Source: an uncultured Myxococcales bacterium
GTDB taxonomy: Bacteria > Myxococcota > Kuafuiibacteriia > Kuafuiibacteriales > Kuafuiibacteriaceae
DNA length: 64,000 bases
NCBI GenBank assembly: GCA_964463485.1
Contig: CAYXDO010000015.1
Location: forward strand, 34,259 to 98,258
Reading direction: 5' to 3'
The position numbers and the translations under genes are program-made. Under the pieces are notes generated by a model, which had not been told where the DNA came from, did no database searches, and saw only the letters and a program-made list of their open reading frames with translations. Below are positions 4,768 to 21,504 of the stretch, one piece after another (position 1 is the stretch's first letter; every line of letters starts with the position of its first letter).

Positions 4768-4832
4768 GTCACCTACTCTCGAACGGTCCTACTCGAGGAG
4801 CCGTGGACGTCCAGTCCTAACAGAAGTCGCTG

Positions 4833-5963
4833 GTGTTGGGCGAGAGGGGCTCGCTAGGAGTCGCGAAGCCCAGGCCGGCGACCGTTCCTTCGCCGGGTCA
4901 GCCATGCTACTCTTTCGCGGTGCAGGTTCTCATCTACGGGGCCGGGTCGATAGGCAATCACCTCGCCTTCGCATGCAGAGAGAGGGACTGGGAAGTCACC
5001 GTCGTCGATGTGGACAGTGCCGCCCTGGAGAGGATGCGGAGCGAAATCTATCCCAAGAGGTACGGCGCGTGGGACCCTGCGATCCGCCTGCAGCTCGGGG
5101 AGGAGGCCGCGGGGGCGGACTTGGTCATCGTCGGGACTCCGCCCGATTCCCACCTCGAATTGGCCGAACGCGCTTTGCGCCTGCGGCCTAGAATCGTGCT
5201 CATCGAGAAGCCGTTGTCGGTTCCGTTTTCCGACTTCAGCGTGGTCGAGCGGCTCGCGCGGGAAACGGGCACTCGCGTTCTGGTAGGTTACAATCATCTC
5301 CTTTGCCGGAATACGAGACACGTCGAGCAGTTGCTTGCCGAGGGTGCGATTGGAGCGCCTATCACGATTCGGGTGAGCTGGGTCGAGTCGTGGGTCGGAA
5401 TCCTGAGGGCCCACCCATGGCTCGCTGGCCCCGAGGCTTCCTACTTGGGAAACTGGGAGCGGGGAGGCGGCTCGCTCTGCGAGCACTCCCACGGGTTGAA
5501 CCTCTTTCAACATTTTGCGCGAACTCTTGGGTTTGGCGAAGTCGAGCTCGTGAGTGCGTCTTTCGACTTCGTCGAGCAGCCGGGTTCTTCGTACGATCGG
5601 ATCGCGCAGCTTCATCTCAGGACCGAAGGCGGGTTGACCGGGCTCGTCACTCAGGACGTGGTTCAAGATCCGCCGGAGAAGAGACTTACGATCGTCGGTG
5701 CGGACGGTGTGCTGAGTTGGTACGGCGCGCGTCCCGACTCGACCGACGGGGTCGTGCTCGAGTCTCGAGGCCGCCGGGAGGAGCGGACTTTCGTCCGATC
5801 GCGCCCGGACGACTTTCGCGGGGAGATCTCACATGTGGCTGACGTCCTAGCGGACCGTGAGCTCGAATCGCCGCTCTCGTTGGAGCACGGTATTCGGACC
5901 ATGAAGGTCATCGACGGAGCGTTCCGAAGCGCGCGCGAGCGCCGCTCGGAGGGGCTTCGATGA
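4833..5963 (+). CDS. Gfo/Idh/MocA-family NAD(P)-dependent oxidoreductase. Start is GTG at 4833 or possibly GTG at 4920.
   Basis: Rossmann motif VLIYGAGSIGNHLA, then VGTPPDSHLELAERAL...IVLIEKPLS typical of Gfo/Idh/MocA. The stop overlaps the next gene's start (ATGA at 5960-5963). Confidence 0.65.
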   Translation: MLGERGSLGVAKPRPATVPSPGQPCYSFAVQVLIYGAGSIGNHLAFACRERDWEVTVVDVDSAALERMRSEIYPKRYGAWDPAIRLQLGEEAAGADLVIVGTPPDSHLELAERALRLRPRIVLIEKPLSVPFSDFSVVERLARETGTRVLVGYNHLLCRNTRHVEQLLAEGAIGAPITIRVSWVESWVGILRAHPWLAGPEASYLGNWERGGGSLCEHSHGLNLFQHFARTLGFGEVELVSASFDFVEQPGSSYDRIAQLHLRTEGGLTGLVTQDVVQDPPEKRLTIVGADGVLSWYGARPDSTDGVVLESRGRREERTFVRSRPDDFRGEISHVADVLADRELESPLSLEHGIRTMKVIDGAFRSARERRSEGLR

Positions 5964-7492
5964 CACGCTTCGCTTTCGACCCGCTCTTCGTTTTCGACTT
6001 GGCGAACAACCATCAAGGAAGCCTGGACCACGGGCTGAGGATCGTGTCCGCCATTGGCGAGGTGGTGCGAGGCGAAGGGGTTCGGGCAGCGCTCAAGGTT
6101 CAACTCCGCCACCTCGAGAGCTTCATTCACCCGGCAGCTCGGGGCTCGAAGGAGAACCGCCACGTCGAGCGGTTTTTGAGCACGGCGCTCTCTGGCGAGG
6201 ATTTCGGAAGACTCATCGCTGCGGTCAGGACTGCCGGTCTGATTCCGATGGCGACTCCGTTCGACGAGAAGTCGGTGGACTCGTTGGAAGAGCTCGGTGT
6301 CGAGGTCGTCAAGATCGGAAGTTGCTCGGCGACGGACTGGCCGTTGATTCGCCGGGTCTGCGCCTCAGGCCGGCCGGTCATCGCCTCGACTGGCGGCATG
6401 TCGCTGATCGACATTGACCGGCTCGTGGCGACGTTCACAACGCACGACGTGGAGTTCGCGCTCATGCACTGTGTTTCGATTTATCCGACTCCTGACGACG
6501 CGTTGAGGTTGAATCAGATCGACGTCCTTCGGGCTCGCTATCCTTGGATCACGGTGGGCTTTTCGACGCACGAGACGCCGACGAATCTCACCGCCGTTCA
6601 GCTTGCGTATGCGAAAGGTGCCCGGATTTTCGAGCGGCACGTCGGCCTGCCCGCCGCGGGCATCGTGCTCAACGCCTACTCGTCGACGCCCGAACAAGTC
6701 CGCGACTGGATTCGCGCGCACGAGCACGCGCGAGCGATGTGTGGAGGTACGAGGCGAGCGCCCTCACCCCTCGGCGAGCTGGAGTCGCTTCGCTCCTTGA
6801 TGCGAGGTGTGTTCGCGAGCAGACCCATCGCTCGCGGCCAAACGATCGCGCGAGACGACGTGTTCTTCGCGATGCCCCTCACGGCTGGACAGCTGAGTTG
6901 TTCTCAGTGGACCGAGGGACTGACCGCCGATGGCGATTATGAACAGCTTGCGCCGCTGTCGTTGAAGCTCGCGGAGCGCGAGAAGACGCGAGAACAACTC
7001 GTCTCCGAGATTCTGCTGCAGGTGAAGGGAGCGCTGAGTAGCGCGCGCATTGCCGTCAATCGCGACGCGAGCTTCGAGATCTCGCACCACTATGGGCTCC
7101 AACGTTTTCGAGAGTTTGGAGCAGTGATCGTCACTTGCGTGAACCGGCAGTATTGCAAGAAGCTGCTCGTGCTGCTGCCTCGGCAGAAGCATCCCTATCA
7201 CATGCATCGAACCAAGGAGGAGACGTTCCAGCTCCTCGCAGGAGATCTCGAGCTCGAGCGCGACGGGACACCCATCACCCTTCGACCAGGTGACACGGCG
7301 CTCGTGGGTCCCGGCGTCTGGCACAAGTTTCACACCCTTGGGGGCGCGGTGATCGAGGAGATCTCCACGACGGACTCACCCAACGACTCGGTGTACGAAG
7401 ACTGGCGAATCAACTCGCTCGCGCCGGCCGAACGCAAGACGTCCGTGCGCGGTATCGAAACGAATCTCGAACAGCCCGAGCTTTCCGAGTAG
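5960..7492 (+). CDS. N-acylneuraminate (nonulosonic acid) synthase family protein: NeuB-like TIM barrel, SAF domain and an extra C-terminal cupin domain
   Basis: N-terminal VFDLANNHQGSLDHGLRIVSAIG resembles the NeuB/PseI/SpsE IAEIGxNHNG motif. A mid-region SAF-like segment (ARGQTIARDDVFFAMP). The last ~150 aa (HMHRTKEETFQLLAGDLELERDGTPITLRPGDTALVGPGVWHKFHT) is cupin_2-like. Confidence 0.7.
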   Translation: MTRFAFDPLFVFDLANNHQGSLDHGLRIVSAIGEVVRGEGVRAALKVQLRHLESFIHPAARGSKENRHVERFLSTALSGEDFGRLIAAVRTAGLIPMATPFDEKSVDSLEELGVEVVKIGSCSATDWPLIRRVCASGRPVIASTGGMSLIDIDRLVATFTTHDVEFALMHCVSIYPTPDDALRLNQIDVLRARYPWITVGFSTHETPTNLTAVQLAYAKGARIFERHVGLPAAGIVLNAYSSTPEQVRDWIRAHEHARAMCGGTRRAPSPLGELESLRSLMRGVFASRPIARGQTIARDDVFFAMPLTAGQLSCSQWTEGLTADGDYEQLAPLSLKLAEREKTREQLVSEILLQVKGALSSARIAVNRDASFEISHHYGLQRFREFGAVIVTCVNRQYCKKLLVLLPRQKHPYHMHRTKEETFQLLAGDLELERDGTPITLRPGDTALVGPGVWHKFHTLGGAVIEEISTTDSPNDSVYEDWRINSLAPAERKTSVRGIETNLEQPELSE

Positions 7493-7495
7493 ATC

Positions 7496-8206
7496 GTGTT
7501 CTCTAGCAAGCGAACGTTGGTCGTAGTCCCGGCGAGGGGTGGGAGCCAAGGGATCCCGCTCAAGAACCTCAAGATCGTCGGCGGGCGGTCACTTTTGGCA
7601 CGAACCGGCGAGGTCGTTTCGCAGCTCGATTTCGTCGATCGCGCGGTCTGCTCGACGGATCATCCGCGCATCGCCGAGGAAGCTCGCGCGGTCGGTCTCG
7701 AGACTCCGTTCGTGAGGCCACAGACTCTCTCGGGGCCGCTCGTCTCAGACGCCGAAGTGCTCGAGCACGCGCTACGCGAGGTCGAGCGGCAGGAGGGCGC
7801 CGAGTACGATCTGGTGGTCATGCTGCAGCCGACGTCGCCCTTGCGTCGCGCCGAAGACGTGACGGGCACGGTGAAGATGCTGGTCGAAGGCGGCTACGAC
7901 GCGGTGTGGACGGTGAGTCTGACCGATCCAAAGCACCACCCCCTCAAGCAGCTCATCATCGAAGGTGACGCCCTCGATTATTATGATGCGGAGGGAGCCC
8001 AGATCATCGCACGCCAACAACTCACTCCTGTATACCATCGGAATGGAGTTGCCTACGCCATCTCGCGTGGCTGCTTGCTCGAACGGCGAAGCATCAAGGG
8101 GTCGAGAACCGGCGCGATGATCGTCGAAGCTCCCGCGATCAGCATCGACACCGAGAGTGACTGCGACTTTGCGGAGTGGATCCTCTCTCGGAGGAGCTCC
8201 CGTTGA
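7496..8206 (+). CDS. Acylneuraminate cytidylyltransferase family (CMP-nonulosonic acid synthetase, NeuA/KdsB-like)
   Basis: N-terminal LVVVPARGGSQGIPLKNLKIVGGRSLL matches the NeuA PARGGSKGIPxKN signature. 236 aa, typical for a stand-alone NeuA domain. Begins 4 nt after the NeuB-like stop. Confidence 0.8.
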   Translation: MFSSKRTLVVVPARGGSQGIPLKNLKIVGGRSLLARTGEVVSQLDFVDRAVCSTDHPRIAEEARAVGLETPFVRPQTLSGPLVSDAEVLEHALREVERQEGAEYDLVVMLQPTSPLRRAEDVTGTVKMLVEGGYDAVWTVSLTDPKHHPLKQLIIEGDALDYYDAEGAQIIARQQLTPVYHRNGVAYAISRGCLLERRSIKGSRTGAMIVEAPAISIDTESDCDFAEWILSRRSSR

Positions 8207-8214
8207 TTCCGGAG

Positions 8215-10405: not shown

Positions 10406-11456
10406 GCGGATCGCGGCTCAGACGTCTGGCGACCGCGTCAGCCATCGCCCGCTCCACGTTCACCGGACCCCCGATTTCGATCCAGCGGTCGAATTCTCGC
10501 CGATAATGAAAGCGAGCCTTCAGCGCCGTCGTGAGCCCGAAATGCACACCTTGATACTCCAACAACAATGGACGTTCTGGGCTTGGCCGACGATCGACGA
10601 TGATGTCGAGCGACGCGAAGGGCAGGTCGAGCTCCTTGGCGGCCTCGAAAGCGAAGTCGAGGATCGTTGCGGGGACCGGCAAGAACTCGAGCCTGCCGCC
10701 CCCGCTCGCCCGAAAGTCGCGCCGACGATTGCGGCGGTAGAGGCCGCACGCGACGTCGTCCCACAGAAGTACTTTCCAATCCCCTTCGCTGACGATGAGC
10801 TCCTGAGCGACGAGTCGCCCAACGGTATGCCGGCGCAGCGCTCGGTCGAGCGCCCGCCTGACGAGACCGCGACCGGGAAACGATGCCGGATCGGTGAGGA
10901 TTCGTCGCGCGGCCCGTCGCGCCTCGCTGGGCGTGCGCGCGAGGCTCACGCCGGAGGCCCCCCACCCAGTCGCGGTCTTCAACACGATGGGAAAGTCCGC
11001 ATCAGCCAAATAGCGATCGAGGTGACCGGAAAAGCCGAAGACTCGAGTCCGCGGGACGGGAATCTTGGAGCGCCCGAGACGGACGGCCTGGTAGACCTTG
11101 TCTTCGTGGGCGAGCATGTGCTCGAACGAAGGCAAGAGGACGACGCCTTGTCTCTCCAGGGCTGAGAGTATCGACCTGATGAAAGCCGAGTACTCTGGAC
11201 GCTGGCTCGTCGCGTACACGGCGGCGGAGGGCCGAGCTGTGGCAAGCTCGAACAACCGCGGATCATGGAGCCCTACCGAAACCGCTTCGAGCCCGTGCCC
11301 GTTCAAGCTCCCCTCGAGCTCCCGCAAGTCTAGCCCCTCGTTCGCGCCGATGCGTTGTGGCACCTGGCCTTTGAAGTCCGTGAGGATCAAGACCCGAGAG
11401 ATGGGTACGGATAGGCGAGGAGAGTCCACCGCCCGACGAATAACTCGACGCTTCAC
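10368..11456 (-). CDS. ATP-grasp domain protein (RimK/D-Ala-D-Ala-ligase-like). Start uncertain, probably GTG near 11456.
   Basis: FPIVLKTATGWGASGVSLARTPSEARRAARRIL is the ATP-grasp glycine-rich ATP-binding region, followed by WKVLLWDDV...YRRN. The full ORF to 11660 would overlap the divergent GT2 start at 11475, so a shorter N-terminus is likely. Confidence 0.55.
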   Translation of the reverse strand: MKRRVIRRAVDSPRLSVPISRVLILTDFKGQVPQRIGANEGLDLRELEGSLNGHGLEAVSVGLHDPRLFELATARPSAAVYATSQRPEYSAFIRSILSALERQGVVLLPSFEHMLAHEDKVYQAVRLGRSKIPVPRTRVFGFSGHLDRYLADADFPIVLKTATGWGASGVSLARTPSEARRAARRILTDPASFPGRGLVRRALDRALRRHTVGRLVAQELIVSEGDWKVLLWDDVACGLYRRNRRRDFRASGGGRLEFLPVPATILDFAFEAAKELDLPFASLDIIVDRRPSPERPLLLEYQGVHFGLTTALKARFHYRREFDRWIEIGGPVNVERAMADAVARRLSRDPLRTSSAGPARAS

Positions 11457-11474
11457 CGATGAGAAGGGGGCCGC

Positions 11475-12407
11475 GTGAATCCGACGCTCTCGATTGTCGT
11501 TCCCGCGCGAAACGTCGCCCGGTGGATCGACGAAGCCGTTCGAAGCGCGCTCGGCTCGAGGCTCGCCTGCGAAGTGCTCGTGGTGGACGATGGCTCGAGT
11601 GATGATACTTGCTGCAGAGTCGAGCAGATTCGCGATTCGCGGGTGAGGGTCGTTCGGCAACGTCCGTTGGGACTCTCATCGGCTCGAAATCGAGGGATCA
11701 CCGAGGCCACCGGGCAATTCATTAGCTTCTTGGACGGCGATGACTGCGTGCTCGCGGCAGAGCTCGATCGAGCGGTGAGTCGCCTGGCGCGTACGGAAGC
11801 CTGGGTGATTTATGGAGAGACCATGATCATGGACTCTCTTGGCAGGGTCTTCGGAGCACGTCCGCCTCCCCTGTTTGCGCCCCGACCGGAGGGTGACGTG
11901 CTCCGGGCGCTCCTCGCTCGCAATTTCATCGCCAGCACGGGAGCCACCGCCATCCGGAGGATCGCGTTCGAGTCGGTGGGTCGGTATGCGCCCGAGCTCG
12001 TCCGGGCGCAGGACTGGGAGATGTGGTGCCGACTCGCAGCCAAGGGTAGGTTCCTTTACGCGGGTCCTCGGCCCATACTCCTCAGGAGAGTCAGAGTCGG
12101 AAGCGTGAGTGCGACGATCGGACTCTCCGCTGCCGAGATGCTTCGTACGATCGAGGTCGTGTTTTCGAATGCGGACGTGGTGGGCGCGATTCCGCGCGAG
12201 CGACTTCGCACGCTGGAGCGCATGCAGATAGCGTTTGCCCACGTAGTCGCGGGAACGGAGTGCTTGAGGGCGCGGCGGTTCGATGAAGCCCGCCGCGCCC
12301 TCGCCCGCGCCCTCGCGATGGATCCGACGCGCCCAGAGGCCGGCGTGCTGCTTCTCGCGGCGCTCGCGCGCCGACTGCCCTCCTCGCTGGAACGCAGACT
12401 CAAGTAG
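11475..12407 (+). CDS. Glycosyltransferase family 2 with C-terminal TPR-like helical tail
   Basis: MNPTLSIVVPARNVARWIDEAVRSAL...VLVVDDGSSDDT...FLDGDD are GT2 motifs. C-terminal Ala/Arg-rich helical region. Confidence 0.75.
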   Translation: MNPTLSIVVPARNVARWIDEAVRSALGSRLACEVLVVDDGSSDDTCCRVEQIRDSRVRVVRQRPLGLSSARNRGITEATGQFISFLDGDDCVLAAELDRAVSRLARTEAWVIYGETMIMDSLGRVFGARPPPLFAPRPEGDVLRALLARNFIASTGATAIRRIAFESVGRYAPELVRAQDWEMWCRLAAKGRFLYAGPRPILLRRVRVGSVSATIGLSAAEMLRTIEVVFSNADVVGAIPRERLRTLERMQIAFAHVVAGTECLRARRFDEARRALARALAMDPTRPEAGVLLLAALARRLPSSLERRLK

Positions 12408-12464
12408 TCGCAGCGGCTTCTCCTTGCACCGCAGCTGCCTCTCGGGTGATCGTCCTCGCTGCTG

Positions 12465-13457
12465 GTGCTCATCTCCATCGTCATACCGATGCTTGACGAA
12501 GCGGGGAGCCTGCCGAGCCTCCACGCGGAGCTCGTCAAAGTCATCGAATCGAGTGGTCTCGAGGCGGAGGTCATCTTCGTCGACGACGGAAGCACGGACG
12601 CGACGTGGCGAGAGCTCGAAGCCATGACCCGACAGGATTCCAGAGTCGTGGCCCTTCGCCTGCGGCGCCGATTCGGCAAGGCCGCTGCGCTCTCGGCGGG
12701 CTTTGCGTTGTCGCGAGGCGAGCTCATCGTGACCTTGGATGGAGATGGCCAAGACGACCCGATGGAGGTTCCTCGGTGCTTGCGCGCGATCGATGAGGGC
12801 CTCGACGTCGTGGTCGGGTGGAAGCGCGATCGAAGGGACCCATTTACCAGGGTCCTCGCCAGCCGAATATTCAACCTCACGGAGAGCCTGCTCAGCGGGT
12901 TGCGGCTTCACGATCATAACTCGGGGCTGAAGGCGATGCGTCGCGCAGTGGTGTCGGAGGTGCGGTTGCACGGGGAGCTCCATCGCTTCATTCCCGCGCT
13001 CGCTCATGCTCGCGGCTTCCGGGTGGGAGAGATTCCGGTGAATCACCGGCCGCGTAAGTTTGGAAAATCCAAGTACGGCTTGTCGCGGTACGTCTGGGGA
13101 CTCCTCGATCTATTGATGGTCCGCCTGCTCGTGGGTTATCGCAGCCGGCCCCAACACGTGTTGGGTCTCTTGGGCTTCGGCTCCTTCTTCGCTGGCGGGA
13201 CCGGGCTGAGTTACCTCGCGGCCACGTGGATCGCCCGTTTTTATCGAGCGGACGAATACCTTCCGCTCGCGTCACGGCCACTGACTTTGTATTCGGTGGC
13301 CGCCCTCGTCTTCGGCGCCCAGATGCTGTCCTTGGGATTTCTCGCGGGACTCCTGCCCGTCTACAGCTCCCGAGATGAGGATCATTACAGCATCAAGGGA
13401 GTCATCGACTCCCGCCGGCCCCTCGACGTGTCCGCGCAGGAGAAGAGAGGAACGTGA
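12465..13457 (+). CDS. Polyprenyl-phosphate glycosyltransferase (GT2, DPM1/ArnC/GtrB-like) with C-terminal TM helices
   Basis: MLISIVIPMLDEAGSL...VIFVDDGSTDATW...VTLDGDGQDDP is the DPM1/ArnC signature. Two C-terminal hydrophobic helices typical of bactoprenol-P sugar synthases. Confidence 0.8.
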   Translation: MLISIVIPMLDEAGSLPSLHAELVKVIESSGLEAEVIFVDDGSTDATWRELEAMTRQDSRVVALRLRRRFGKAAALSAGFALSRGELIVTLDGDGQDDPMEVPRCLRAIDEGLDVVVGWKRDRRDPFTRVLASRIFNLTESLLSGLRLHDHNSGLKAMRRAVVSEVRLHGELHRFIPALAHARGFRVGEIPVNHRPRKFGKSKYGLSRYVWGLLDLLMVRLLVGYRSRPQHVLGLLGFGSFFAGGTGLSYLAATWIARFYRADEYLPLASRPLTLYSVAALVFGAQMLSLGFLAGLLPVYSSRDEDHYSIKGVIDSRRPLDVSAQEKRGT

Positions 13458-15286
13458 ATTCGAGAGAGCCCGGAGTGACCAACTCAGCTCGCCCGGGACT
13501 TCTCGAGGCGATGGGCGCGACCTGGTCGATGCTAGCCGTCAAGGATCGGCGTCGCCTGCTCGGACTCGTGGGGCTGCTCGTGATCGGCGCTGGACTGGAG
13601 GCGCTCGGAGTTGGATCGATCTTGCCGATCGTCCTCATGATCACTCGAGGTGAGTCAGCGGCTGCCCCGGGCTTGTCGCCCAAGCTCTACGCGGTGCTCG
13701 AGCGACTCACTTCGGGAGTCGGTCCTCCTGCGGTGGCGCTGCTCGTAGTCGGCGTCTTCGTTGTCAAGAACGGCTTTCTCTCCCTGACCGCGTACCTGCA
13801 ATTTCGTTTCATCAATCGCTTGCAGGTAGAGGCGGGAGAGGAGTTGTTTCGCCTTTACATGAGTCTGCCGTACGTCGATCATCTGGGTTCGAACCCGGCG
13901 CATCTGCTGAGGGACATCGACTCGGACGTCAAGCTCGCCCATCAAAAGGTGCTGCGCGCGATGATTCAGCTCCTCACGGAGGCCTTCGTTCTCTCTGCCA
14001 TCACGCTCCTGCTCGCGCTGCTCGATCCAGCCGTCGCGATCGCGGCGTTTGGGGTTTGTGGGGCGATGGGTTGGGCGTTTCACAGACTGATTAGGCGAAA
14101 GAGCGCTGGCTTGGGGCTTGCGGAGCGTCGGGCTCGGGGTCGAATCAACGAGCTCGTCCTGCAAGGGTTGCACTCCCTTCGTGAGACGAAGGTTCTCGGA
14201 CGCGAGGGCTTCTTCATCGCCGGTTTCGCGGAGGAGGCTCGACTGTTTTCGCGCGCGCACCTTTTCAACCAAATGGCGACGACGACCCCGTACTACGTTC
14301 TCGAGACGGTCGTGGCGGCAAGTCTGCTCCTGGTCCTGTGGTTGGGTCTGGTTCGGGGGTATGAGTTGTCGACGCTGGCTCCGGTCTTGGCTGTGTTCGT
14401 GGTCGCCGCGCTCCGCCTCGCCCCTTCGCTCAATCGAACGCTCGGAGCGGTCGAGTCGATGAGGTTCCACGGCCCCTCCGTGCGGGCGCTGTTGGCGAAT
14501 CGCTCGCGGGCACGTGCGAGTATCCTCGTCGAGGTGACGATGGGCGAACGAATCGAGCTGACGAATTCCATCCAGCTCCGAGGAGTTTCGTTCTCCTATC
14601 CCGACTCGCGTCGCCGCGCGCTCACCGAAGTCGAGCTTACCATCCCTCACGGCACGATTTTCGGCCTCGTCGGCCCCACCGGTAGCGGTAAGACCACGAC
14701 GGCCGATCTCGTACTGGGGCTGCTGCGCCCTCAAAGTGGGGAAATCCTCGTCGACGGGAAAGACATCTTCCGCGGCCTCGAGAGTTGGCGGGATCAGGTC
14801 GCGTATGTACCGCAGACCGTCTATCTCACGGACGACACGATTCGTCGAAACGTCGCCTTCGCCCTGCCGCCCGAGCGAATCGACGAGGCCGCGGTACTCA
14901 GGGCGCTGGAAGGCGCGCGGCTCCTCGACTTCGTACGCTCGCTCCCCAAGGGGCTCGAAACCGTCGTGGGAGAAGCGGGAGCTAGGCTCTCGGCGGGGGA
15001 GCGTCAGCGGATTGGAATCGCCCGCGCGCTGTATCGACCGGGCCGACTCCTCGTCCTAGACGAGTCCACCTCGGCGCTCGATTTGGAAACCGAGCGGCAA
15101 ATCTGCGAGACGATTTCGAGCCTACGCAAGGATCGGACGATCCTGATCATCGCTCATCGGCCCAGCACGATCGAGTCATGCGACCAGGTCTGCCTGCTAT
15201 CAGAAGGTCGTATCATGCGGATCGGAGCTCCACGAGAGGTGATGGGCGAAGGTTTCGGAGTGGCCTCGGCTGGGGCGCTTTCATGA
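13454..15286 (+). CDS. ABC exporter, fused permease plus ATPase (MsbA/PglK-like). Candidate lipid-linked glycan flippase.
   Basis: Six-TM N-terminal half. Walker A GPTGSGKTT, ABC signature LSAGERQRIGIARAL, Walker B LLVLDESTSALD. GTG start overlaps the upstream stop (GTGA). Confidence 0.85.
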   Translation: MNSREPGVTNSARPGLLEAMGATWSMLAVKDRRRLLGLVGLLVIGAGLEALGVGSILPIVLMITRGESAAAPGLSPKLYAVLERLTSGVGPPAVALLVVGVFVVKNGFLSLTAYLQFRFINRLQVEAGEELFRLYMSLPYVDHLGSNPAHLLRDIDSDVKLAHQKVLRAMIQLLTEAFVLSAITLLLALLDPAVAIAAFGVCGAMGWAFHRLIRRKSAGLGLAERRARGRINELVLQGLHSLRETKVLGREGFFIAGFAEEARLFSRAHLFNQMATTTPYYVLETVVAASLLLVLWLGLVRGYELSTLAPVLAVFVVAALRLAPSLNRTLGAVESMRFHGPSVRALLANRSRARASILVEVTMGERIELTNSIQLRGVSFSYPDSRRRALTEVELTIPHGTIFGLVGPTGSGKTTTADLVLGLLRPQSGEILVDGKDIFRGLESWRDQVAYVPQTVYLTDDTIRRNVAFALPPERIDEAAVLRALEGARLLDFVRSLPKGLETVVGEAGARLSAGERQRIGIARALYRPGRLLVLDESTSALDLETERQICETISSLRKDRTILIIAHRPSTIESCDQVCLLSEGRIMRIGAPREVMGEGFGVASAGALS

Positions 15287-16266
15287 GTAGCGGGAGCCGT
15301 CCGCTTCGGCCTCAGTCGGGTCGGGATGAGAGCTCAACTCCGACCGCGCCGTCGAATCCGGGAAACGGAGGCCAGGTCGCCCTGAGTGTCGTGATTCCAG
15401 CATACCAGATGCGCGACGAGCTCGCGTCGTGCCTCGATGCGTTGATGTCGGAGCGCTCCGACGCGGGAGTTTCTTTCGAGGTGATTGTCGTCGAGAGCTC
15501 TGGAGATTCGACCGCCGCCGACCTGGCCGATCGATTCACCGAGGTGACTTTCGTGGACGTTGGCGCCCGCGCGTTCGCAGGAGAGGCTCGGAACATCGGC
15601 GCACGGCGCGCGAGAGCCCCTATCATCGCTTTTCTCGACGCGGACTGTATCATCGAGCCAGGCTGGGTCGAGGCCACGATTCGGTCCCATGAGTCCGTGG
15701 ACGCGATCGTCGGCGGAGCCGTGCTTCCGCGGCCGCCGATTTCGGCGAGCGGCCTCCTGCTCTTCGCGATCGAATTCTCGGAGTTCCTTCCTCGGGGGAA
15801 GCGTCGCGAGATGCGCTTCGTTCCTTCGTATAGCATGTCGCTTCGCTCGTCGACGATGGCGGCGACTGGCGGGTTCAGTGCCGAGCTCGAAGTCTCCGAA
15901 GATGTCGCATTTTGTGCAGCCGCGCGACGCGCGGGCCGACGCGTGTTGTTCGAGCCTTCCGTTCGCGTCCGTCACGTCGACCGATCTGGGTTCCAACGAG
16001 CGCTCGGGAGGCTTCACAAGCTGGGGGAGGGGTCGGGGCGAGCGAGAGTGTTGCATGAGCTTCACGGGAGCTTCATCGCGCGTTTCAGACCACTCGTACC
16101 CTTGTTGGTTCCCTACCGATTCGCCATGATTTTCGGGCGCGTCGCCGCGAGTGACCACGGTATCGAGCGGGCGCTCGCGTACGCGCTCGGCGCTCCGATC
16201 GTGCTCCTCGGCTTGGGCTCGTGGGCGCATGGGTTCTGGGTCGGGATCAAAGAGGCGAGTCCTTGA
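15283..16266 (+). CDS. Glycosyltransferase family 2
   Basis: VALSVVIPAYQMRDELASCLDAL...FEVIVVESSGD...FLDADC. ATG at 15283 overlaps the ABC-gene stop (ATGA). ORF-track start 15178 lies inside the ABC gene. Confidence 0.7.
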   Translation: MSSGSRPLRPQSGRDESSTPTAPSNPGNGGQVALSVVIPAYQMRDELASCLDALMSERSDAGVSFEVIVVESSGDSTAADLADRFTEVTFVDVGARAFAGEARNIGARRARAPIIAFLDADCIIEPGWVEATIRSHESVDAIVGGAVLPRPPISASGLLLFAIEFSEFLPRGKRREMRFVPSYSMSLRSSTMAATGGFSAELEVSEDVAFCAAARRAGRRVLFEPSVRVRHVDRSGFQRALGRLHKLGEGSGRARVLHELHGSFIARFRPLVPLLVPYRFAMIFGRVAASDHGIERALAYALGAPIVLLGLGSWAHGFWVGIKEASP

Positions 16267-17729
16267 AACGGCTCCCGCTGGCAGACCGGGTCACTCGCGC
16301 GTTGCTGGTGATGTCACTGGTCGTGCTGGTCGGCCGGGTGCTCAGCGTGCCGGGCCCCTTCGGTGCCAACGACGTCTCCAGATGGGCCACCATTCGGTCC
16401 TTGGTCGACTTCTCGACGTTCGCAGTCGGTCAGCGCATTCGGGCGCCGGACGGAAGACTGGTCGAAGACAAGCCTCAGGGGACCATCGATCTCGTGTTGG
16501 ATCCGAGGACTGGATTCTTCTACTCGAGCAAGCCTCCCCTCCTCTCGACGATCATGGCCGCGGAGTACTGGGCGCTCCATCGCGCCCTGGATTGGCGCAT
16601 CGATACTCATGAGCCTCAGATCATGAAGGTTCTGCTTCTGACGTTCAACGTCACGGCGCTCACGACCTATCTCCTCGTCTTCGCGAGATTTCTCGAAGAT
16701 TTGAAGATCGTAGGTTGGAGTCGGGCGGTGCTCATCGGGCTCGCGGGGCTCGGAACCTTCGTCACGACCTTCGCCACGTCGATCACGAATCATGTCCCCG
16801 CCGCCGTATCGACATTGCTCTCTGCATACTGCTTCCGCAACGCCTGGGTTGGCGGAGCGCGGTTGGCTTATTTCGGGGCGGGTCTCTTCGCTGGCGTCGC
16901 CGCGAGCCTGGAGATACCAGCCGTGATTTTTTTGGGCGTCGTCGGGATCGTTCTCGTCGTCAGGAGTCCGCTGCGAACGTTTGGGCTATACTTCCCGGCG
17001 GCCTTGATTCCGATGGGGGGGTTTTGGCTCACGAACAGCCTGTCGTTTGGCGACCCTTTCTTCTTCTACCGACATCCGAAAGACTGGTTTGCGTACCCGG
17101 GTGGGTACTGGGACGCGCCGAGCGGCGTCGATCTCTTCGACAAGGGCCCGGTCGAATACTCGTTTCATTATCTCCTCGGACACCATGGGATCATCTCGCT
17201 CACACCCATGTTTTTCTTGGCGATCGTGGGTCTGGTCCGGACCAACCAAGCCATTCCGCGAGCTCGGTCTTGGATGGTCGCCGGGCTGATGTGCCCGGCC
17301 CTGGTCGGACTTTTGGCCCTGGGTCGCGTCGACGTGCCCGTGCCGACGGTCGTATCGATGGCGCCTTCCCTCCTGGTTGCCGGGCTCTGCTTCGTCTTGC
17401 CATGGAGATGGTTCGAGCGGGCCGGCGCGGATCCGGCAGGGTTCGATCGAGCCTTCTCGCGAGTCACGATCGCCTGCAGCCTCGTCGTCGCTTCGTTCTA
17501 CGTCTCTGGCACCTCGAACTACGGCGGGATCGCGGCCGGACCCCGCTGGTTCATGTGGCTCATGCCGCTGTGGATTGTATTCATGGGCTCGGGGACCGCG
17601 GAGTTGCTCGACTCCAAGCGGGGCCGATTCGTGCTCTCGGCGCTCCTCGCATTCTCTGCCTACTCGGCGCTCAGCCCAGGTGTGAGTGCGTGGACCAATC
17701 CCTGGATCTACTCCTTTTTCTTCCGGTGA
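16263..17729 (+). CDS. Polytopic membrane protein with at least 10 predicted TM segments. Putative GT-C-type glycosyltransferase or glycan polymerase.
   Basis: Highly hydrophobic 480-490-aa ORF. A candidate TTG start at 16263 overlaps the GT2 stop (TTGA). Follows polyprenyl-P GT2, ABC exporter and GT2 in one coupled run. Confidence 0.5.
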   Translation: MKRLPLADRVTRALLVMSLVVLVGRVLSVPGPFGANDVSRWATIRSLVDFSTFAVGQRIRAPDGRLVEDKPQGTIDLVLDPRTGFFYSSKPPLLSTIMAAEYWALHRALDWRIDTHEPQIMKVLLLTFNVTALTTYLLVFARFLEDLKIVGWSRAVLIGLAGLGTFVTTFATSITNHVPAAVSTLLSAYCFRNAWVGGARLAYFGAGLFAGVAASLEIPAVIFLGVVGIVLVVRSPLRTFGLYFPAALIPMGGFWLTNSLSFGDPFFFYRHPKDWFAYPGGYWDAPSGVDLFDKGPVEYSFHYLLGHHGIISLTPMFFLAIVGLVRTNQAIPRARSWMVAGLMCPALVGLLALGRVDVPVPTVVSMAPSLLVAGLCFVLPWRWFERAGADPAGFDRAFSRVTIACSLVVASFYVSGTSNYGGIAAGPRWFMWLMPLWIVFMGSGTAELLDSKRGRFVLSALLAFSAYSALSPGVSAWTNPWIYSFFFR

Positions 17730-20110
17730 ACCTCGAGCGTTCCAAATGGAATCACCGCCAGGCCCAAGTAGATCGCTGCGCCGAGCGCAATGGCCACGTC
17801 GAACCCGAGCGCATGCGAGATCGGGAGGTTGAATCCCGCAGCGAGTACAGCTGCCACTGAGTTTACGGCGAGGGCCCACGGGACGAGGCTCGAGTCGGAC
17901 GCGGACAGCGCGCTCAGGCCCCGTGGAAAAACGAGGCCGAGACCGAAACCGGCCGGCGCGAGCGCGACCACACACCCGAGCATGCGCAGCGCAACCTCCG
18001 ATCCGAGGAGGGTTGCCTTGGCGAGGTCGAGCGCGAAGAGCGAACCCAAAGAGCCCAGAGCGGCCAAGACGAGCGCGCCCCTGATTCCACGACCCGCGGC
18101 CCTGGTCGACCATCTACTGCCCAGCCCGGTAAAGACGATCAGGCCGCCGAGGCCAACGGCCAAGCTCTGACCAGGCCGCCCGACCAAGAGCTCGAGCTTT
18201 TGGAGGAGTCCGAGCTCGACCATCATGAACCCGCTCCCGGCGCCGAAGAACAGAAGCAGAAACTTCACCCGCTCGGAAACGTGGGCGCGAGAAGTTTCCT
18301 CCGCGCGGCGAATGCCGCGAAACCGTCGCAGGAGCAGAGGACCCAAGATGAGTATGACGGCGACCCCCGCGAACGCGGCGAGCGCCTCGCGGCGTCGGAC
18401 TTTGTGCTCGAAGTCCGCCCGAAAACCCAGCCGGTCCAATTCGGTTGGAAGTCTCGGCCACAAATACGCCGACGGTGGGAGCAAATCATAGACGAACGGA
18501 CGTTCATCACCGTCAGGTAACAGGCGCAAGCCGAGGGGGTTCTGTTCCAACACAGAGACTGGATCGTCGGCGTGGAGCAGGTCGTAATACGGGTTTCCTG
18601 GCTGGGAATGACGGGGAGCATACAGAAATCGGCCCGACTCTCCCGCGGCGATGCGCGTCAGGTCGGCGTCCGAGAAGCCGTGCGGCTTGATCAGGATCCG
18701 TGATTGATCGTGAGGGTCCCACCAAGCACGAGTCGCGCCCGAAACCACGGCCATGGCGTCACTCGCCCGTCCGGGACCGAGGGTGGAGTCGAGGACCTCG
18801 CGCACGGTAGCGGCCAATTTGAGCTTGTTGGTGTTCAGCACGGTGAGTTGACCCCCAGGAGCGAGGTGGTCGATGAGTTGGGCAACTCCCTGGCGAGTAT
18901 ACAAGAAACCCATGGCCTCGGTCAGCACGCCTCCGAAGGCCGCATATCCGGCCCCGGTCCAGGAGACGACTATGCAATCGAACTTACGAGCGTCGCGAGC
19001 CAAAAATCCCCGAGCCTCATCGATGACGAGCTCTATGTTGGGTTTGTCGAAAAACTCCGCGAGGTGGAAGTCGGTCTGAGACCGAGGCCAGTCCACGACC
19101 TGCGGCAGCAGCTCGACGCCCGTGATCCGAGCGCGCCCGCCAAGCGCGGCGTCGATCTGAATCATGTCCCAGCCGGCTCCGGCCAAGAGGACGAGCACAG
19201 AATTTCTGGGACATGCGGCCAGCGCTAGCTCAACGGCCTCGTCTGGGTCAGAGAGACTGCCTGGGTCATAGGGAACGATCGTCGCATGACCCCGTCCCTC
19301 CTCATGCGCCATGACGTAGCGCGTGCCTCCGGCCTCCTCGATTCTCAGCGCTGCGACCCGGGTGAGTGCGGTCCAGGTGTGCCATAGCTCCGTCACGGAG
19401 CCGCTCATGGAGCGGCTGAGTTTTCGGAGATCCGGTCTAGGCTCGAACGACTCGGCGACCTTTGGAAGGAGCAGGAGGCTGGAGGACGCCGCGAGCGCCA
19501 GACACACTCCCAGGAGCTTCTGGCTCCGCGAGTAAAGCCCCGCGCAGCAGAAGGCCAAACCGACGACGAACGCGAGAGGAGGTGCGAATCCACCGAGCTC
19601 GAGCAGGGCCACGGCGAGCACACACCCCGCCGCGGCGCCGAAGAGGTCGAATGAGTAAAGGGAGGCGATTCGCTCGGGAAGAGCCGCCGAAAATACCACC
19701 GAGTGTGCGACTCCGATGAAGAAGAACGGCAGGCTCATGAGCGCTCCGATCGCCAGCGCTCCTCGCATCTCGAGCGCCGCCGACTTGGCGACCAACTCAT
19801 CCAGCGTCGCGGCAGGAAGTCCATTCAGGTGCGACTTGATGCGCGCGGCCGCGAAGAATAGAACCAAGACGGACACCGCCGCCCCGAGCATGGCCCATGC
19901 AGCTTCCTGGCCTGCCCTCGACAGAGTCGGGGGCTCCTTCCTCAAGCAAACCCAGGCTCCGGCGACCGCCGTGCCAAGCATGGCCACTGACACCGTGTAA
20001 TATACCGTCGGCGGACCAAAGACGATGCTCAGCACCCGGCTCGCCAGAATCTCGAGGAGCAGGAGCGTCGCGGAGGCGACGAACACGGACCAAGATAGCC
20101 TCACCGTCAC
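17708..20110 (-). CDS. Spermidine-synthase-like (PABS-fold) domain embedded in a polytopic membrane protein
   Basis: Central VLVLLAGAGWDMI...VELLPQVV...FDCIVVSWTGAGYA...LAPGGQLTV is a class-I/spermidine-synthase-like fold. It is flanked by N- and C-terminal multi-TM regions. Start overlaps the next gene's stop by 4 nt. Confidence 0.7.
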   Translation of the reverse strand: MTVRLSWSVFVASATLLLLEILASRVLSIVFGPPTVYYTVSVAMLGTAVAGAWVCLRKEPPTLSRAGQEAAWAMLGAAVSVLVLFFAAARIKSHLNGLPAATLDELVAKSAALEMRGALAIGALMSLPFFFIGVAHSVVFSAALPERIASLYSFDLFGAAAGCVLAVALLELGGFAPPLAFVVGLAFCCAGLYSRSQKLLGVCLALAASSSLLLLPKVAESFEPRPDLRKLSRSMSGSVTELWHTWTALTRVAALRIEEAGGTRYVMAHEEGRGHATIVPYDPGSLSDPDEAVELALAACPRNSVLVLLAGAGWDMIQIDAALGGRARITGVELLPQVVDWPRSQTDFHLAEFFDKPNIELVIDEARGFLARDARKFDCIVVSWTGAGYAAFGGVLTEAMGFLYTRQGVAQLIDHLAPGGQLTVLNTNKLKLAATVREVLDSTLGPGRASDAMAVVSGATRAWWDPHDQSRILIKPHGFSDADLTRIAAGESGRFLYAPRHSQPGNPYYDLLHADDPVSVLEQNPLGLRLLPDGDERPFVYDLLPPSAYLWPRLPTELDRLGFRADFEHKVRRREALAAFAGVAVILILGPLLLRRFRGIRRAEETSRAHVSERVKFLLLFFGAGSGFMMVELGLLQKLELLVGRPGQSLAVGLGGLIVFTGLGSRWSTRAAGRGIRGALVLAALGSLGSLFALDLAKATLLGSEVALRMLGCVVALAPAGFGLGLVFPRGLSALSASDSSLVPWALAVNSVAAVLAAGFNLPISHALGFDVAIALGAAIYLGLAVIPFGTLEVHRKKKE

Positions 20111-21504
20111 GGGTCCTCCGGGGCACTCGAAGACGGCTCATTTCGCTCCCTCAGCGGGAAGCGAGCGCTCGAGATTCCAAGCCAGGCCACGATTCCGATC
20201 AAGAGAGCATTTCGAAGGACCAAGATGGTGACCGTCGGTGCGCTCAGCGCTGGAATGAGTCCTAATTCGTCCACAAGCTCGTCTCCCAAGTGCGAAACGA
20301 AGTGCTGACGATAGACCCAGTCCGTGGCCAAATACACCAGAGTGATGAGACCCATCAGGATCGGAAGCTCGCGAGGTCGAAGGACCTCGAGCCCTACGAC
20401 GCAAGCCATGGGTACGAGCCAGATGAGGTACTGCGGAGAGAGGACCTTGGAAGCAACGACGAACCCGAGAATCGCAACCAAGAGTAAGCCCAGCTCGTTT
20501 TCGCGCCTTGCTCGCAGGGTGCACGACGCCACGATGACGCCCTGCGCGAGCAGAGAGAGCGTCGACAGGGACCCAGCGATCGAAGTCTCGAGCTCGAACG
20601 TGTGGAACGCGAGCACAGCGCGGGCGTCGAGACCGAGAGGGCGCAACATGAGTACCAAACTCGACCATACCGACTCGATCTCGAGCCCTCGCACCGCGTG
20701 GAAATGAAGAAACCTGAGCGCACCGGCTCCCGCGTCCAGATGAGGAAGAAAAGTCGCACCGATCGCAGCTCCAACGGCGACAAGGCCGATCGCCGCTCGT
20801 CTCCGGCTCGCTCTCCACCGACTCGCGAAGAGAACCGGGACGGCCGCGGCCGGAAAAATCTTCAGCGCCACGCATCCGCCCAAGGCCGCATCGGCGGCGA
20901 GGTGTCGCTGACGATTCCAGAGACACAAGAACGCGGAGATTCCTGTCAGGAGCGCCACGTCGAGTCGGTCGTAGAGGACCGACGGCACGAGAGCGGGACC
21001 GAGCGCGTATACGATGGCGCCTAGCCCCGCGCGCCGGGCCGAGTATCGAGACAGAAAGTGGAGGAACGCCACGAATCCAAGAACGTCCAGCCCGGCCATC
21101 AAAGCGCGAAACCGGTGATAGTAGACGAGCAGGACTCGGAGGCGGAGCTTGTCAGCGGGCTCGATGCGCGACCCTGCTACGGCGCCTAGAGGATAGATGT
21201 CGCGCTCATCCAGATCCACGAGCTGCCGCCGGAAATTGGGAAACCAGCCCACGAGAGTCGGATCTCTGATTTCGCGGGCCGAAATGCCCAGCGATGGCAA
21301 CGCGATCAGCCACCACGCAGGGGGTGGATATTCGACCTGGATGTCTCGATACATCGAACCGCCGAGCTTCCAAGCCACGACGCGCTCGTGGTAGCGAACC
21401 ACATCGGTGCCGCCCGTGAGCGACTCTACCTCGAGCAGAACGAACGCGCGGGTGATCACGAACAGCAGCACACCCGGCAAGAGCCAGCCTAGTCTCTTTT
21501 TCAT
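20107..21504 (-). CDS. Polytopic membrane protein, DUF2029/GT87-like (GT-C-type mannosyltransferase-like)
   Basis: N-terminal TM helix followed by RYHERVVAWKLGGSMYRDIQVEYPPPAWW (DUF2029-like eYPP region), with many TM helices after. Confidence 0.5.
   Translation of the reverse strand: MKKRLGWLLPGVLLFVITRAFVLLEVESLTGGTDVVRYHERVVAWKLGGSMYRDIQVEYPPPAWWLIALPSLGISAREIRDPTLVGWFPNFRRQLVDLDERDIYPLGAVAGSRIEPADKLRLRVLLVYYHRFRALMAGLDVLGFVAFLHFLSRYSARRAGLGAIVYALGPALVPSVLYDRLDVALLTGISAFLCLWNRQRHLAADAALGGCVALKIFPAAAVPVLFASRWRASRRRAAIGLVAVGAAIGATFLPHLDAGAGALRFLHFHAVRGLEIESVWSSLVLMLRPLGLDARAVLAFHTFELETSIAGSLSTLSLLAQGVIVASCTLRARRENELGLLLVAILGFVVASKVLSPQYLIWLVPMACVVGLEVLRPRELPILMGLITLVYLATDWVYRQHFVSHLGDELVDELGLIPALSAPTVTILVLRNALLIGIVAWLGISSARFPLRERNEPSSSAPEDP

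What the first reader, a model, noticed from the sequence alone, without database searches (positions are those of the whole stretch)
12465..17729. Coupled module: polyprenyl-P GT2, ABC exporter, GT2, polytopic membrane protein
Four genes are joined by start/stop overlaps (GTGA at 13454, ATGA at 15283, TTGA at 16263). A DPM1/ArnC/GtrB-type GT2 makes a polyprenyl-phosphate sugar. A fused TMD-NBD ABC exporter resembles MsbA/PglK lipid-linked-oligosaccharide flippases. The final 10+ TM protein could be the periplasmic GT-C transferase or polymerase. Together this looks like a self-contained make, flip and transfer unit, possibly delivering the nonulosonate-containing glycan to a protein or lipid acceptor.
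Basis: partly seen in the sequence, partly recalled or inferred. Interest (0 to 1): 0.6.

Follow-up and report, generated by a model that had tools for sequence, protein, structure and literature searches.

The report
Lipid-linked sugar make, flip, transfer operon
Four overlapping genes in an uncultured deltaproteobacterium encode a lipid-sugar synthase, a PglK-like ABC flippase, a second glycosyltransferase and a membrane sugar transferase from an undescribed family; this is an ordinary kind of envelope-glycosylation system with unusual gene content.

Summary
Four same-strand genes (12465-17729) are joined by GTGA, ATGA and TTGA overlaps. The public annotation uses the same starts.

- **Gene 1** is a full-length ArnC/GtrB/DPMS-type polyprenyl-phosphate GT2.
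- **Gene 2** is an intact half-size ABC exporter. Its membrane domain alone matches only PglK among all PDB chains, and matches no peptide or bacteriocin exporter.

New findings:
- Genes 1 and 4 form a widely conserved pair. They are adjacent in 54 and fused in 4 of 79 genomes, mostly Planctomycetota.
- Only here is the pair split by the ABC gene plus a GT2.
- The nearest ABC relatives (37-40% identity) sit in nonulosonate sugar clusters in 5 of 6 contexts, never with the pair.

Most likely this is a composite operon. A lipid-sugar donor synthase and its periplasmic transferase are combined with the flippase of the surrounding nonulosonate glycan locus. "Self-contained" and the acceptor remain unproven. 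Interest is modest: a new member of a known kind.

The parts
12465..13457 (+). Gene 1: polyprenyl-phosphate glycosyltransferase (GT2, ArnC/GtrB/DPMS class), 330 aa, with a C-terminal TM hairpin
   Evidence: Pfam Glycos_transf_2 4.9e-27. PDB ArnC 9bhc E 1.7e-43 over residues 3-301, including the TM helices; GtrB 5eke 6e-22; DPMS 5mlz 2e-15. DDGS and LDGDGQDDP motifs align with ArnC LDADLQNPP. Orthologues (36-58% identity) abut or are fused to gene-4 orthologues in 58 of 79 genomes.
13454..15286 (+). Gene 2: half-size (TMD-NBD) type IV ABC exporter, PglK-like, 610 aa
   Evidence: ABC_tran 1e-27. NCBIfam MsbA 267, PglK 252 and HepA 242 bits, all below cut-off. TMD alone: only PDB hit is PglK, E 2.3e-10; NCBIfam PglK 47.7 > MsbA 27.9 > CydC 27.3 bits. 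Walker A, Q-loop, LSAGE signature, Walker B-E and H-loop are intact. PglK R302 and R309 are conserved; R260 and R86 are not.
15283..16266 (+). Gene 3: GT2 (GT-A) glycosyltransferase, MftF/EpsD-like, 327 aa, with one C-terminal hydrophobic segment
   Evidence: Pfam Glycos_transf_2 6e-16 and Glyco_tranf_2_3 4e-13. NCBIfam MftF 94 bits and EpsD 71 bits, below cut-offs. Nearest homologues are 41-43% identical, in non-conserved contexts. Related GT2s sit in gene-4-family loci of Vicinamibacteria and in L001.
16263..17729 (+). Gene 4: GT-C fold glycosyltransferase of an undescribed sequence family, 488 aa, about 12 TM
5960..8206 (+). Context: NeuB-cupin fusion and PseF-like cytidylyltransferase (nonulosonate synthesis and activation). 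The functional link to gene 2 is inferred.
   Evidence: Pfam NeuB 1.6e-39 and CTP_transf_3 7.8e-16. NCBIfam NeuB 131 bits and PseF 100 bits, below cut-offs. Five of six contexts of the nearest gene-2 homologues carry the same kind of genes.
20107..21504 (-). Context: convergent 465-aa polytopic protein, probably a second GT-C (GT87/DUF2029-like). It could also draw on the gene-1 donor.
   Evidence: Pfam GT87 21.1 bits against a cut-off of 25, covering model positions 24-237 of 237. A relative (phmmer 1e-9) lies directly upstream of the closest gene-4 homologue in L001/L002.

Best explanation
This is a composite envelope-glycosylation operon inside a roughly 19-kb surface-glycan locus (about 2772-21504).

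Gene 1 transfers a sugar from a nucleotide sugar to undecaprenyl (polyprenyl) phosphate on the cytoplasmic face. This makes a monophosphate-linked lipid-sugar donor. Gene 4 is a GT-C enzyme whose conserved residues lie in loops predicted to be periplasmic. It uses that donor to glycosylate an acceptor outside the cytoplasm. These two genes are an ancient, obligately linked pair.

Two genes have been placed between them. Gene 2 is a PglK-type ABC exporter. Its clade accompanies nonulosonate sugar pathways, so it most likely flips the lipid-linked nonulosonate-containing glycan that the locus's cytoplasmic transferases build. Gene 3 is an ordinary GT2 that likely adds one of those sugars. The flipped glycan, or its final carrier, is then a plausible acceptor for gene 4.

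Shown: the fold or family of each protein, the gene 1-gene 4 linkage, and the genomic company the ABC clade keeps. Inferred: the sugar, the lipid, the acceptor, and which lipid-linked species the ABC protein moves.
For: - Gene 1 shows full-length homology to solved ArnC, GtrB and DPMS, with the DxD region and TM hairpin.
- Of 79 genome loci with a gene-4 homologue, 54 have the gene-1 orthologue directly upstream and 4 have a single fused ORF. A called fusion protein, P0108, exists.
- No conserved third neighbour accompanies the pair.
- ABC: the TMD matches only PglK and the ATPase motifs are intact.
- The nearest ABC homologues sit beside NeuB, CTP_transf_3, Epimerase_2 or PseB/C-like genes in 5 of 6 contexts, and never beside gene 1 or gene 4. 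The window has NeuB and a cytidylyltransferase 5 kb upstream.
- PglK and Wzk are established flippases of UndPP-linked glycans with relaxed specificity (PMC2841628).
Against: - No initiating phosphoglycosyltransferase, Wzx/Wzy, WaaL or oligosaccharyltransferase was found in the 64-kb window. The UndPP-glycan that the ABC protein is proposed to flip therefore has no visible start or end enzyme here.
- The ABC gene is translationally coupled on both sides to the pair. In Vicinamibacteria, a polytopic PF03706 'flippase-like' gene plus gene-3-like GT2s sit with the gene 1/gene 4 homologues. Both facts fit a self-contained module equally well.
- Only 2 of the 4 PglK cavity arginines are conserved.
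- The arrangement is a singleton: the nearest ABC and GT2 relatives are at most 43% identical.
Confidence: 0.45

Rival explanations
1. Self-contained make-flip-transfer module. Gene 1 makes Und-P-sugar, and gene 3 may add a second sugar to it. The ABC protein flips this monophosphate-linked donor in place of the usual small GtrA/SMR/MATE flippase. Gene 4 transfers it to the acceptor.
For: The ABC gene lies between gene 1 and gene 4 with 4-nt overlaps on both sides. Vicinamibacteria loci L004, L005, L016 and L060 combine an ArnC-like GT2, MftF/EpsD-like GT2(s), a polytopic PF03706 protein and a gene-4 homologue. These are the same four functional categories, with PF03706 in the ABC slot. P0005 is a gene-4-like protein fused to PF03706. 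Flippase classes in three-component systems are already known to vary between GtrA/SMR and MATE (PMC11127046).
Against: An ABC homologue lies within 10 kb in only 4 of the 83 gene-4-family loci examined (L001-L084, including the four), and is never adjacent. The nearest ABC relatives lie in nonulosonate clusters that lack genes 1 and 4. The conserved PglK R302 and R309 were proposed to contact a pyrophosphate, which Und-P-sugar lacks. Most pairs manage without any linked flippase.
Confidence: 0.25
2. Monophosphate-linked oligosaccharide pathway with haloarchaeal Agl-like logic. Gene 1 is the initiating enzyme. The locus's GT2 and GT4 enzymes and a CMP-nonulosonate transferase extend Und-P-sugar to an oligosaccharide. 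The ABC protein flips it, and gene 4 transfers it en bloc.
For: No PGT or OST/ligase is present in the window. Extra GT2s and a dedicated polytopic protein appear together with the pair here and in Vicinamibacteria, whereas bare pairs lack both. Gene 1 aligns end to end with the AglJ model (61.6 bits) and gene 3 partly with AglG (36 bits).
Confidence: 0.15
3. The ABC protein is functionally unrelated to glycosylation, for example an MsbA-like lipid exporter or a drug or peptide exporter, and is merely co-transcribed.
For: All NCBIfam scores are far below family cut-offs. The full-length MsbA score (267 bits) slightly exceeds PglK (252). Pfam ABC_membrane did not reach 0.01.
Against: The TMD-only search hits PglK alone in the PDB and ranks PglK first in NCBIfam. 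No C39 peptidase domain and no peptide-exporter TMD hit is present. Six of six homologue contexts are glycan loci.
Confidence: 0.08

Closest known systems
Three-component periplasmic glycosylation systems (GtrA/GtrB/Gtr* of Shigella/Salmonella; Citrobacter ORF15/14/12, GT136; PMC11127046)
   Same: A polyprenyl-P-sugar synthase is genetically linked to a GT-C transferase that acts outside the cytoplasm. A membrane protein in the same operon is available as flippase.
   Different: The candidate flippase is a 610-aa ATP-driven ABC exporter, not GtrA/SMR/MATE. An extra GT2 is present. The GT-C belongs to no described sequence family. The synthase-GT-C pair is elsewhere often fused. The acceptor is unknown.
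ArnC / ArnE-F / ArnT lipid A aminoarabinose pathway
   Different: Gene 1 scores 151 bits against the 529-bit ArnC cut-off. The window has no ArnA/B/D or ArnE/F genes. Gene 4 has no PMT_2 (GT83) sequence signature.
PglK (Campylobacter) and Wzk (Helicobacter) UndPP-glycan ABC flippases
   Same: Same half-transporter architecture. PglK is the only solved protein whose TMD matches. The RLxPSxNR segment with R302 and R309 is conserved. The gene is located in a glycan locus.
   Different: 252 bits against the 1000-bit equivalog cut-off. R86 and R260 are not conserved. No PglB, PglC, WecA or WaaL is visible nearby. The gene is embedded in a GtrB-like/GT-C pair.
Streptococcal GtrB/PgtC2 and PgfS/PgfM1 protein O-glycosylation (PMC12041528)
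   Same: An Und-P-sugar synthase (PgfS model 125 bits, full length) works with a GT-C partner, which shows proteins can be the acceptor.
   Different: Gram-positive systems with different GT-C families. No ABC component is described.
Eukaryotic Dol-P-Man-dependent mannosyltransferases ALG12/ALG9/ALG3 and PIG-M
   Different: 10-15% identity, and no sequence-level relationship is detectable even with a profile. Bacterial context.

Membership tests
Polyprenyl-phosphate glycosyltransferases of GT2 (GtrB/ArnC/DPMS class) - gene 1 | GT-A catalytic domain with a DxD region | tested here: met
   Pfam PF00535 4.9e-27. DDGS and LDGDGQDDP align with ArnC LDADLQNPP and GtrB IDADLQDPP.
Polyprenyl-phosphate glycosyltransferases of GT2 (GtrB/ArnC/DPMS class) - gene 1 | End-to-end homology, including the juxtamembrane region and C-terminal TM hairpin | tested here: met
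   ArnC 9bhc residues 10-300 align to query 3-301, E 1.7e-43. The ArnC alignment runs through its C-terminal transmembrane region; a hydropathy scan flags one segment (278-296) above threshold.
Polyprenyl-phosphate glycosyltransferases of GT2 (GtrB/ArnC/DPMS class) - gene 1 | Orthology to a named enzyme (ArnC, PgfS, AglJ, PpgS) by curated cut-off | tested here: not met
   ArnC 150.8 bits against 529; PgfS 124.9 against 500; AglJ 61.6 against 325. The sugar specificity is therefore unknown.
Polyprenyl-phosphate glycosyltransferases of GT2 (GtrB/ArnC/DPMS class) - gene 1 | Formation of a polyprenyl-P-sugar | not testable with these tools
   Needs a membrane assay with labelled NDP-sugars.
PglK/Wzk-type ABC flippase of lipid-linked oligosaccharides - gene 2 | TMD-NBD half-transporter with intact ATPase motifs | tested here: met
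   Walker A GPTGSGKT 407, VPQ 452, LSAGE 512, LLVLDE 532, IAHR 566. ABC_tran 1e-27.
PglK/Wzk-type ABC flippase of lipid-linked oligosaccharides - gene 2 | Membrane domain closer to PglK than to other exporters | tested here: met
   TMD-only search: PglK is the sole PDB hit (2.3e-10). NCBIfam PglK 47.7 > MsbA 27.9 > CydC 27.3 bits.
PglK/Wzk-type ABC flippase of lipid-linked oligosaccharides - gene 2 | Curated equivalog score | tested here: not met
   252 bits against a cut-off of 1000.
PglK/Wzk-type ABC flippase of lipid-linked oligosaccharides - gene 2 | Cavity arginines R86, R260, R302 and R309 | tested here: inconclusive
   R302 and R309 are conserved (RLAPSLNR). R260 aligns to Tyr. R86 aligns to N106, with K105 adjacent.
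PglK/Wzk-type ABC flippase of lipid-linked oligosaccharides - gene 2 | Companion PGT and OST or ligase in the locus | tested here: not met
   None found among the window's large ORFs. They may lie elsewhere in the genome.
GT-C fold glycosyltransferases - gene 4 | Polytopic membrane protein with the GT-C core fold | tested here: met
GT-C fold glycosyltransferases - gene 4 | Invariant acidic residue in the first extracytoplasmic loop | tested here: met
   N36-D37 and D76 are invariant in 70 sequences, within loop 28-91 after TM1. The sidedness is inferred from the fold, not measured.
GT-C fold glycosyltransferases - gene 4 | Membership of a described sequence family (GT87/DUF2029, PMT/PMT_2, STT3, LA_3751/2 and others) | tested here: not met
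   No Pfam hit. NF047440 scores 28 bits against 200. No PDB sequence hit with the single sequence or the profile. A few homologues have sub-threshold GT87 hits.
Oligosaccharyltransferase (PglB/STT3/AglB) - gene 4 | C-terminal periplasmic domain with the WWDxG motif | tested here: not met
Three-component (Gtr-like) periplasmic glycosylation system - whole block | Conserved genetic linkage of the lipid-sugar synthase and the GT-C | tested here: met
   54 adjacent and 4 fused among 79 genome loci.
Three-component (Gtr-like) periplasmic glycosylation system - whole block | Small GtrA/SMR or MATE flippase | tested here: not met
   None in the block. The only candidate is the ABC exporter.

The most novel reading that the evidence does not exclude
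A bacterial glycan, possibly nonulosonate-containing, is assembled on undecaprenyl MONOphosphate. Gene 1 initiates it, the locus's soluble GTs extend it, the PglK-like ABC protein flips it, and a GT-C from a new and widespread family (about 1000 clusters at 50% identity) transfers it en bloc. This would be a bacterial counterpart of the haloarchaeal Agl pathway. It would also explain why no phosphoglycosyltransferase, ligase or OST is seen in the locus.
Probability: 0.15. Interest if true: 0.65.

Novelty: new member of a known kind. Interest (0 to 1): 0.35.

Why it matters
The work assigns a fold and a likely donor to a large, unnamed membrane-protein family. The family has about 1000 clusters at 50% identity with E <= 1e-30, found in at least 592 species genomes and dominant in Planctomycetota. 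These proteins are GT-C glycosyltransferases fed by a dedicated, often fused, ArnC-like lipid-sugar synthase. This points to an uncharacterised and apparently housekeeping envelope modification in Planctomycetota and Acidobacteriota.

The window itself offers a natural experiment. The pair is combined with a PglK-like ABC flippase and nonulosonate genes. That could reveal whether ABC exporters can serve polyprenyl-monophosphate donors, a flippase question still open for Und-P and Dol-P sugars. None of this overturns current understanding. It is a plausible, testable extension of known glycosylation logic.

Tried and rejected
- **Sequence searches for gene 4.** Pfam, NCBIfam, PDB phmmer and a PDB profile search gave nothing usable. 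The fold had to come from structure prediction.
- **afdb50 fold search.** The library was unavailable.
- **The 840-aa neighbour of the closest gene-4 homologue.** I tested whether it matched the 800-aa convergent gene. It does not. It weakly matches the 465-aa GT87-like gene instead.
- **The 537-aa partner of a gene-3 homologue (L090).** It is not gene-4-like, and the window's 465-aa protein is not related to the gene-4 profile.
- **A conserved third (flippase) gene next to the pair in 80 genomes.** Clustering of neighbours found only lineage-specific synteny and shadow ORFs.
- **The nearest deltaproteobacterial gene-4 homologue (L058, Myxococcales).** It stands in a non-glycan context without a GT2.
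- **Gene-3 homologue contexts.** They are not conserved.
- **Recent horizontal insertion of genes 2-3.** GC and GC3 are uniform across the locus, so there is no compositional sign of it.
- **The 'polymerase' reading of gene 4.** It was dropped because no Wzy, WaaL or SEDS structure appears among the fold matches.
- **The peptide/bacteriocin exporter reading of gene 2.** It was dropped after the TMD-only searches.

Full report
**Observation.** The block 12465-17729 holds four + strand ORFs of 330, 610, 327 and 488 aa. The junction sequences are GTGA at 13454, ATGA at 15283 and TTGA at 16263, so each start overlaps the preceding stop by 4 nt. Exact-length database entries from the same MAG ('Deltaproteobacteria bacterium', locus tag HY791_19735, 282.7-kb contig) use the same starts. 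Promoter-like and terminator-like sites inside the block do not exceed shuffled expectation. The preceding GT2-TPR gene ends 57 nt upstream, so the operon may be longer. At the 3' end, gene 4 overlaps the convergent 800-aa gene by 22 nt. GC and GC3 are uniform across the locus.

**Gene 1 (12465-13457).**
- Pfam gives GT2.
- Against solved structures, the best matches are ArnC (E 1.7e-43, query 3-301 against chain 10-300, through the C-terminal membrane helices), GtrB sll0501 (6e-22) and Pyrococcus DPMS (2e-15).
- The DDGS and LDGDGQDDP segments align with ArnC LDADLQNPP and GtrB IDADLQDPP.
- NCBIfam ranks ArnC, PgfS, AglJ and PpgS, all well below equivalog cut-offs.

Gene 1 is therefore a polyprenyl-phosphate sugar synthase of unknown sugar specificity. 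It is not an ArnC orthologue.

**Gene 2 (13454-15286).**
- It is a TMD-NBD half-transporter with intact Walker A, Q-loop, signature, Walker B-Glu and H-loop motifs.
- Full-length NCBIfam scores are MsbA 267, PglK 252 and HepA 242 bits. Peptide-exporter models score 200 or less, and mainly through the NBD.
- I removed the NBD and searched residues 1-365 alone. The only PDB hit was PglK (2.3e-10). The only NCBIfam hits were PglK (47.7 bits), MsbA (27.9) and CydC (27.3).
- Of the four PglK cavity arginines proposed to contact the LLO pyrophosphate (R86, R260, R302, R309; PMC5395944), R302 and R309 are conserved in an RLxPSxNR segment. R260 aligns to Tyr and R86 to Asn, next to a Lys.
- The nearest database homologues are only 37-40% identical, and several are labelled PglK by JGI.
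- Their genomic contexts are informative. Five of six carry nonulosonate-type genes: NeuB, CTP_transf_3, Epimerase_2, or PseB/PseC-like pairs. Two also have Wzz/GNVR and one has Capsule_synth. The sixth is a GT2-rich locus with Wzy_C. None contains gene 1 or gene 4 relatives.
- The window has a NeuB-cupin fusion, a PseF-like cytidylyltransferase and a GFO/IDH/MocA oxidoreductase 5-8 kb upstream.

**Gene 3 (15283-16266).** This is a generic GT-A GT2 (MftF/EpsD-like, below cut-offs). Its nearest homologues are 41-43% identical and their contexts are not conserved.

**Gene 4 (16263-17729).**
- It has no Pfam family and only a 28-bit hit to the LA_3751/2 putative-GT model (cut-off 200). It has no PDB sequence hit, even with a 70-sequence profile.
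- Homologues are all 'hypothetical'.
- A ColabFold model built on a 70-sequence alignment is confident (pLDDT 88.9, pTM 0.90).
- Foldseek agrees. Transporter hits have probability below 0.4 and TM-score about 0.13.
- The invariant residues N36, D37, R40, W41, R45, D76 and K90 fall in the first large loop after TM1. H307 and R428/W429 fall in the other large loops. This is the pattern expected of a GT-C active site on the outer face, although the sidedness is inferred.
- There is no soluble C-terminal domain and no WWD motif, so it is not an OST.
- The family is large: 1002 clusters at 50% identity with E <= 1e-30 and 2172 with E <= 1e-10. At least 592 species genomes carry it, mostly Planctomycetota, plus Vicinamibacteria and others.

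**The key comparative result.** I ran phmmer with the window proteins against six-frame ORFs of the fetched loci.
- A close gene-1 orthologue (36-58% identity, median 51%) lies directly upstream on the same strand in 54 of 79 genome loci. That is far closer than ArnC.
- It is in the same ORF as the gene-4 homologue in 4 loci, and elsewhere in the flank in 7. Eleven loci lack it and 3 are truncated.
- A called fusion protein, P0108 (GT2 plus gene-4-like, 736 aa), confirms that fusions are real.
- No other gene is consistently adjacent.
- ABC homologues occur within 10 kb in only 4 loci and are never adjacent.

Genes 1 and 4 are therefore a conserved donor-synthase/GT-C pair. In this window, and so far only here, the pair is interrupted by the ABC gene and a GT2.

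**A second pattern.** In Vicinamibacteria (L004, L005, L016, L060), the gene-4 homologue clusters with an ArnC-like GT2, one or two MftF/EpsD-like GT2s and a polytopic PF03706 (LPG_synthase_TM, 'flippase-like') protein. P0005 is a gene-4-like/PF03706 fusion. These are the same four functional categories as in the window, with PF03706 where the window has the ABC protein.

**Mechanism.**
- *Shown:* the family or fold of each product, the gene 1-gene 4 linkage, and the nonulosonate company kept by the ABC clade.
- *Inferred:* gene 1 charges Und-P with a sugar in the cytoplasm, and gene 4 transfers it to an acceptor in the periplasm. The ABC protein translocates a lipid-linked saccharide.
- *Which saccharide is the open point.* I favour (0.45) the lipid-linked nonulosonate glycan of the surrounding locus. 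The reasons are the clade's contexts, the PglK-like TMD and the conserved R302/R309. On this reading gene 3 is one of the cytoplasmic GTs, and gene 4 decorates that glycan or its carrier.
- *The self-contained reading* (ABC flips the gene-1 product; 0.25) is supported by the tight coupling and the Vicinamibacteria analogy.
- *A unifying and more novel reading* (0.15) is an Und-P-linked oligosaccharide started by gene 1 and transferred en bloc by gene 4. It would explain why no PGT, Wzx/Wzy, WaaL or OST appears in the window. However, gene 4's nearest folds are single-sugar transferases.
- *An unrelated exporter* is unlikely (0.08).

**Comparison with known systems.** Functionally this is the logic of Gtr-type three-component systems and the Arn pathway: a lipid-sugar synthase, a flippase and a GT-C (PMC11127046). 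It also parallels the streptococcal GtrB/PgtC2 and PgfS/PgfM1 pairs (PMC12041528). Here that logic is combined with a PglK/Wzk-type flippase (PMC2841628). The block is not a member of any named orthologous group, because every curated cut-off is missed. It differs from known systems in four ways:
- the ABC protein sits in the flippase position;
- an extra GT2 is present;
- the GT-C belongs to no described sequence family;
- the synthase and the GT-C are frequently fused elsewhere.

**Verdict.** The finding is real and its parts are correctly recognised. It is a new member of a known kind of system, in a singleton arrangement of moderate interest. The most useful by-product is the functional hypothesis for a large uncharacterised GT-C family and its dedicated GT2 partner.

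Noticed in passing
window 17708-20110 (-): An 800-aa protein with about 7 TM helices, a central soluble domain faintly resembling spermidine synthase or a methyltransferase (PDB 1uir E 0.026), then about 6 more TM helices. It has no Pfam hit. Its 3' end overlaps the 3' end of gene 4 by 22 nt. It is GTGA-coupled to the upstream 465-aa gene.
   Followed up: partly
window 20107-21504 (-): A 465-aa polytopic protein with a sub-threshold but full-model-length GT87/DUF2029 hit (21.1 bits against 25). It is probably a second GT-C beside the operon. An 840-aa relative lies directly upstream of the closest gene-4 homologue in L001/L002.
   Followed up: partly
window 5960-7492 (+): A NeuB-family nonulosonate synthase domain fused to a C-terminal cupin domain. 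A PseF-like cytidylyltransferase follows (7496-8206) and a GFO/IDH/MocA oxidoreductase precedes it. All score far below NCBIfam equivalog cut-offs, so the sugar is probably not standard Neu5Ac or Pse.
   Followed up: partly
window 41839-43845 (-): A third GT-C in the window: a 668-aa PMT_2/PMT family protein (ArnT/PMT-like), about 24 kb from the operon. It lies near CotH kinase, sulfotransferase and AIR-synthase-related genes.
   Followed up: no
window 10368-11660 (-): A RimK-like ATP-grasp ligase sits on the opposite strand in the middle of the GT2 run. Its longest ORF overlaps the start of the 11475 GT2-TPR gene by 186 nt, so its true start is probably internal. It may add an amino-acid substituent to the glycan.
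   Followed up: no
P0108, L064, L070, L074, L081; P0005: Natural fusions exist. In several Planctomycetota and Kuenenia genomes, the ArnC-like GT2 and the gene-4-family GT-C form one polypeptide. One gene-4-like protein is fused to a PF03706 (LPG_synthase_TM) domain.
   Followed up: partly
L087 6001-9185; L086 and L093: In the closest ABC homologue contexts, the ABC gene overlaps a downstream Capsule_synth (KpsC/S-like) gene (L087) or directly follows a Wzz/GNVR gene (L086, L093). This hints that the ABC clade may export polymers rather than short oligosaccharides.
   Followed up: no
window 21742-27359 (-): A complete RND efflux operon (outer-membrane factor, AcrB-family pump, membrane-fusion protein) lies immediately downstream of the glycan locus and marks its boundary.
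   Followed up: no
window 192-2720 (+): An 842-aa protein with PPDK_N and PEP-utilising mobile domains (PEP synthase / rifampicin phosphotransferase-like, far below cut-offs) lies at the 5' edge of the glycan locus. It may be a sugar or glycan phosphotransferase.
   Followed up: no
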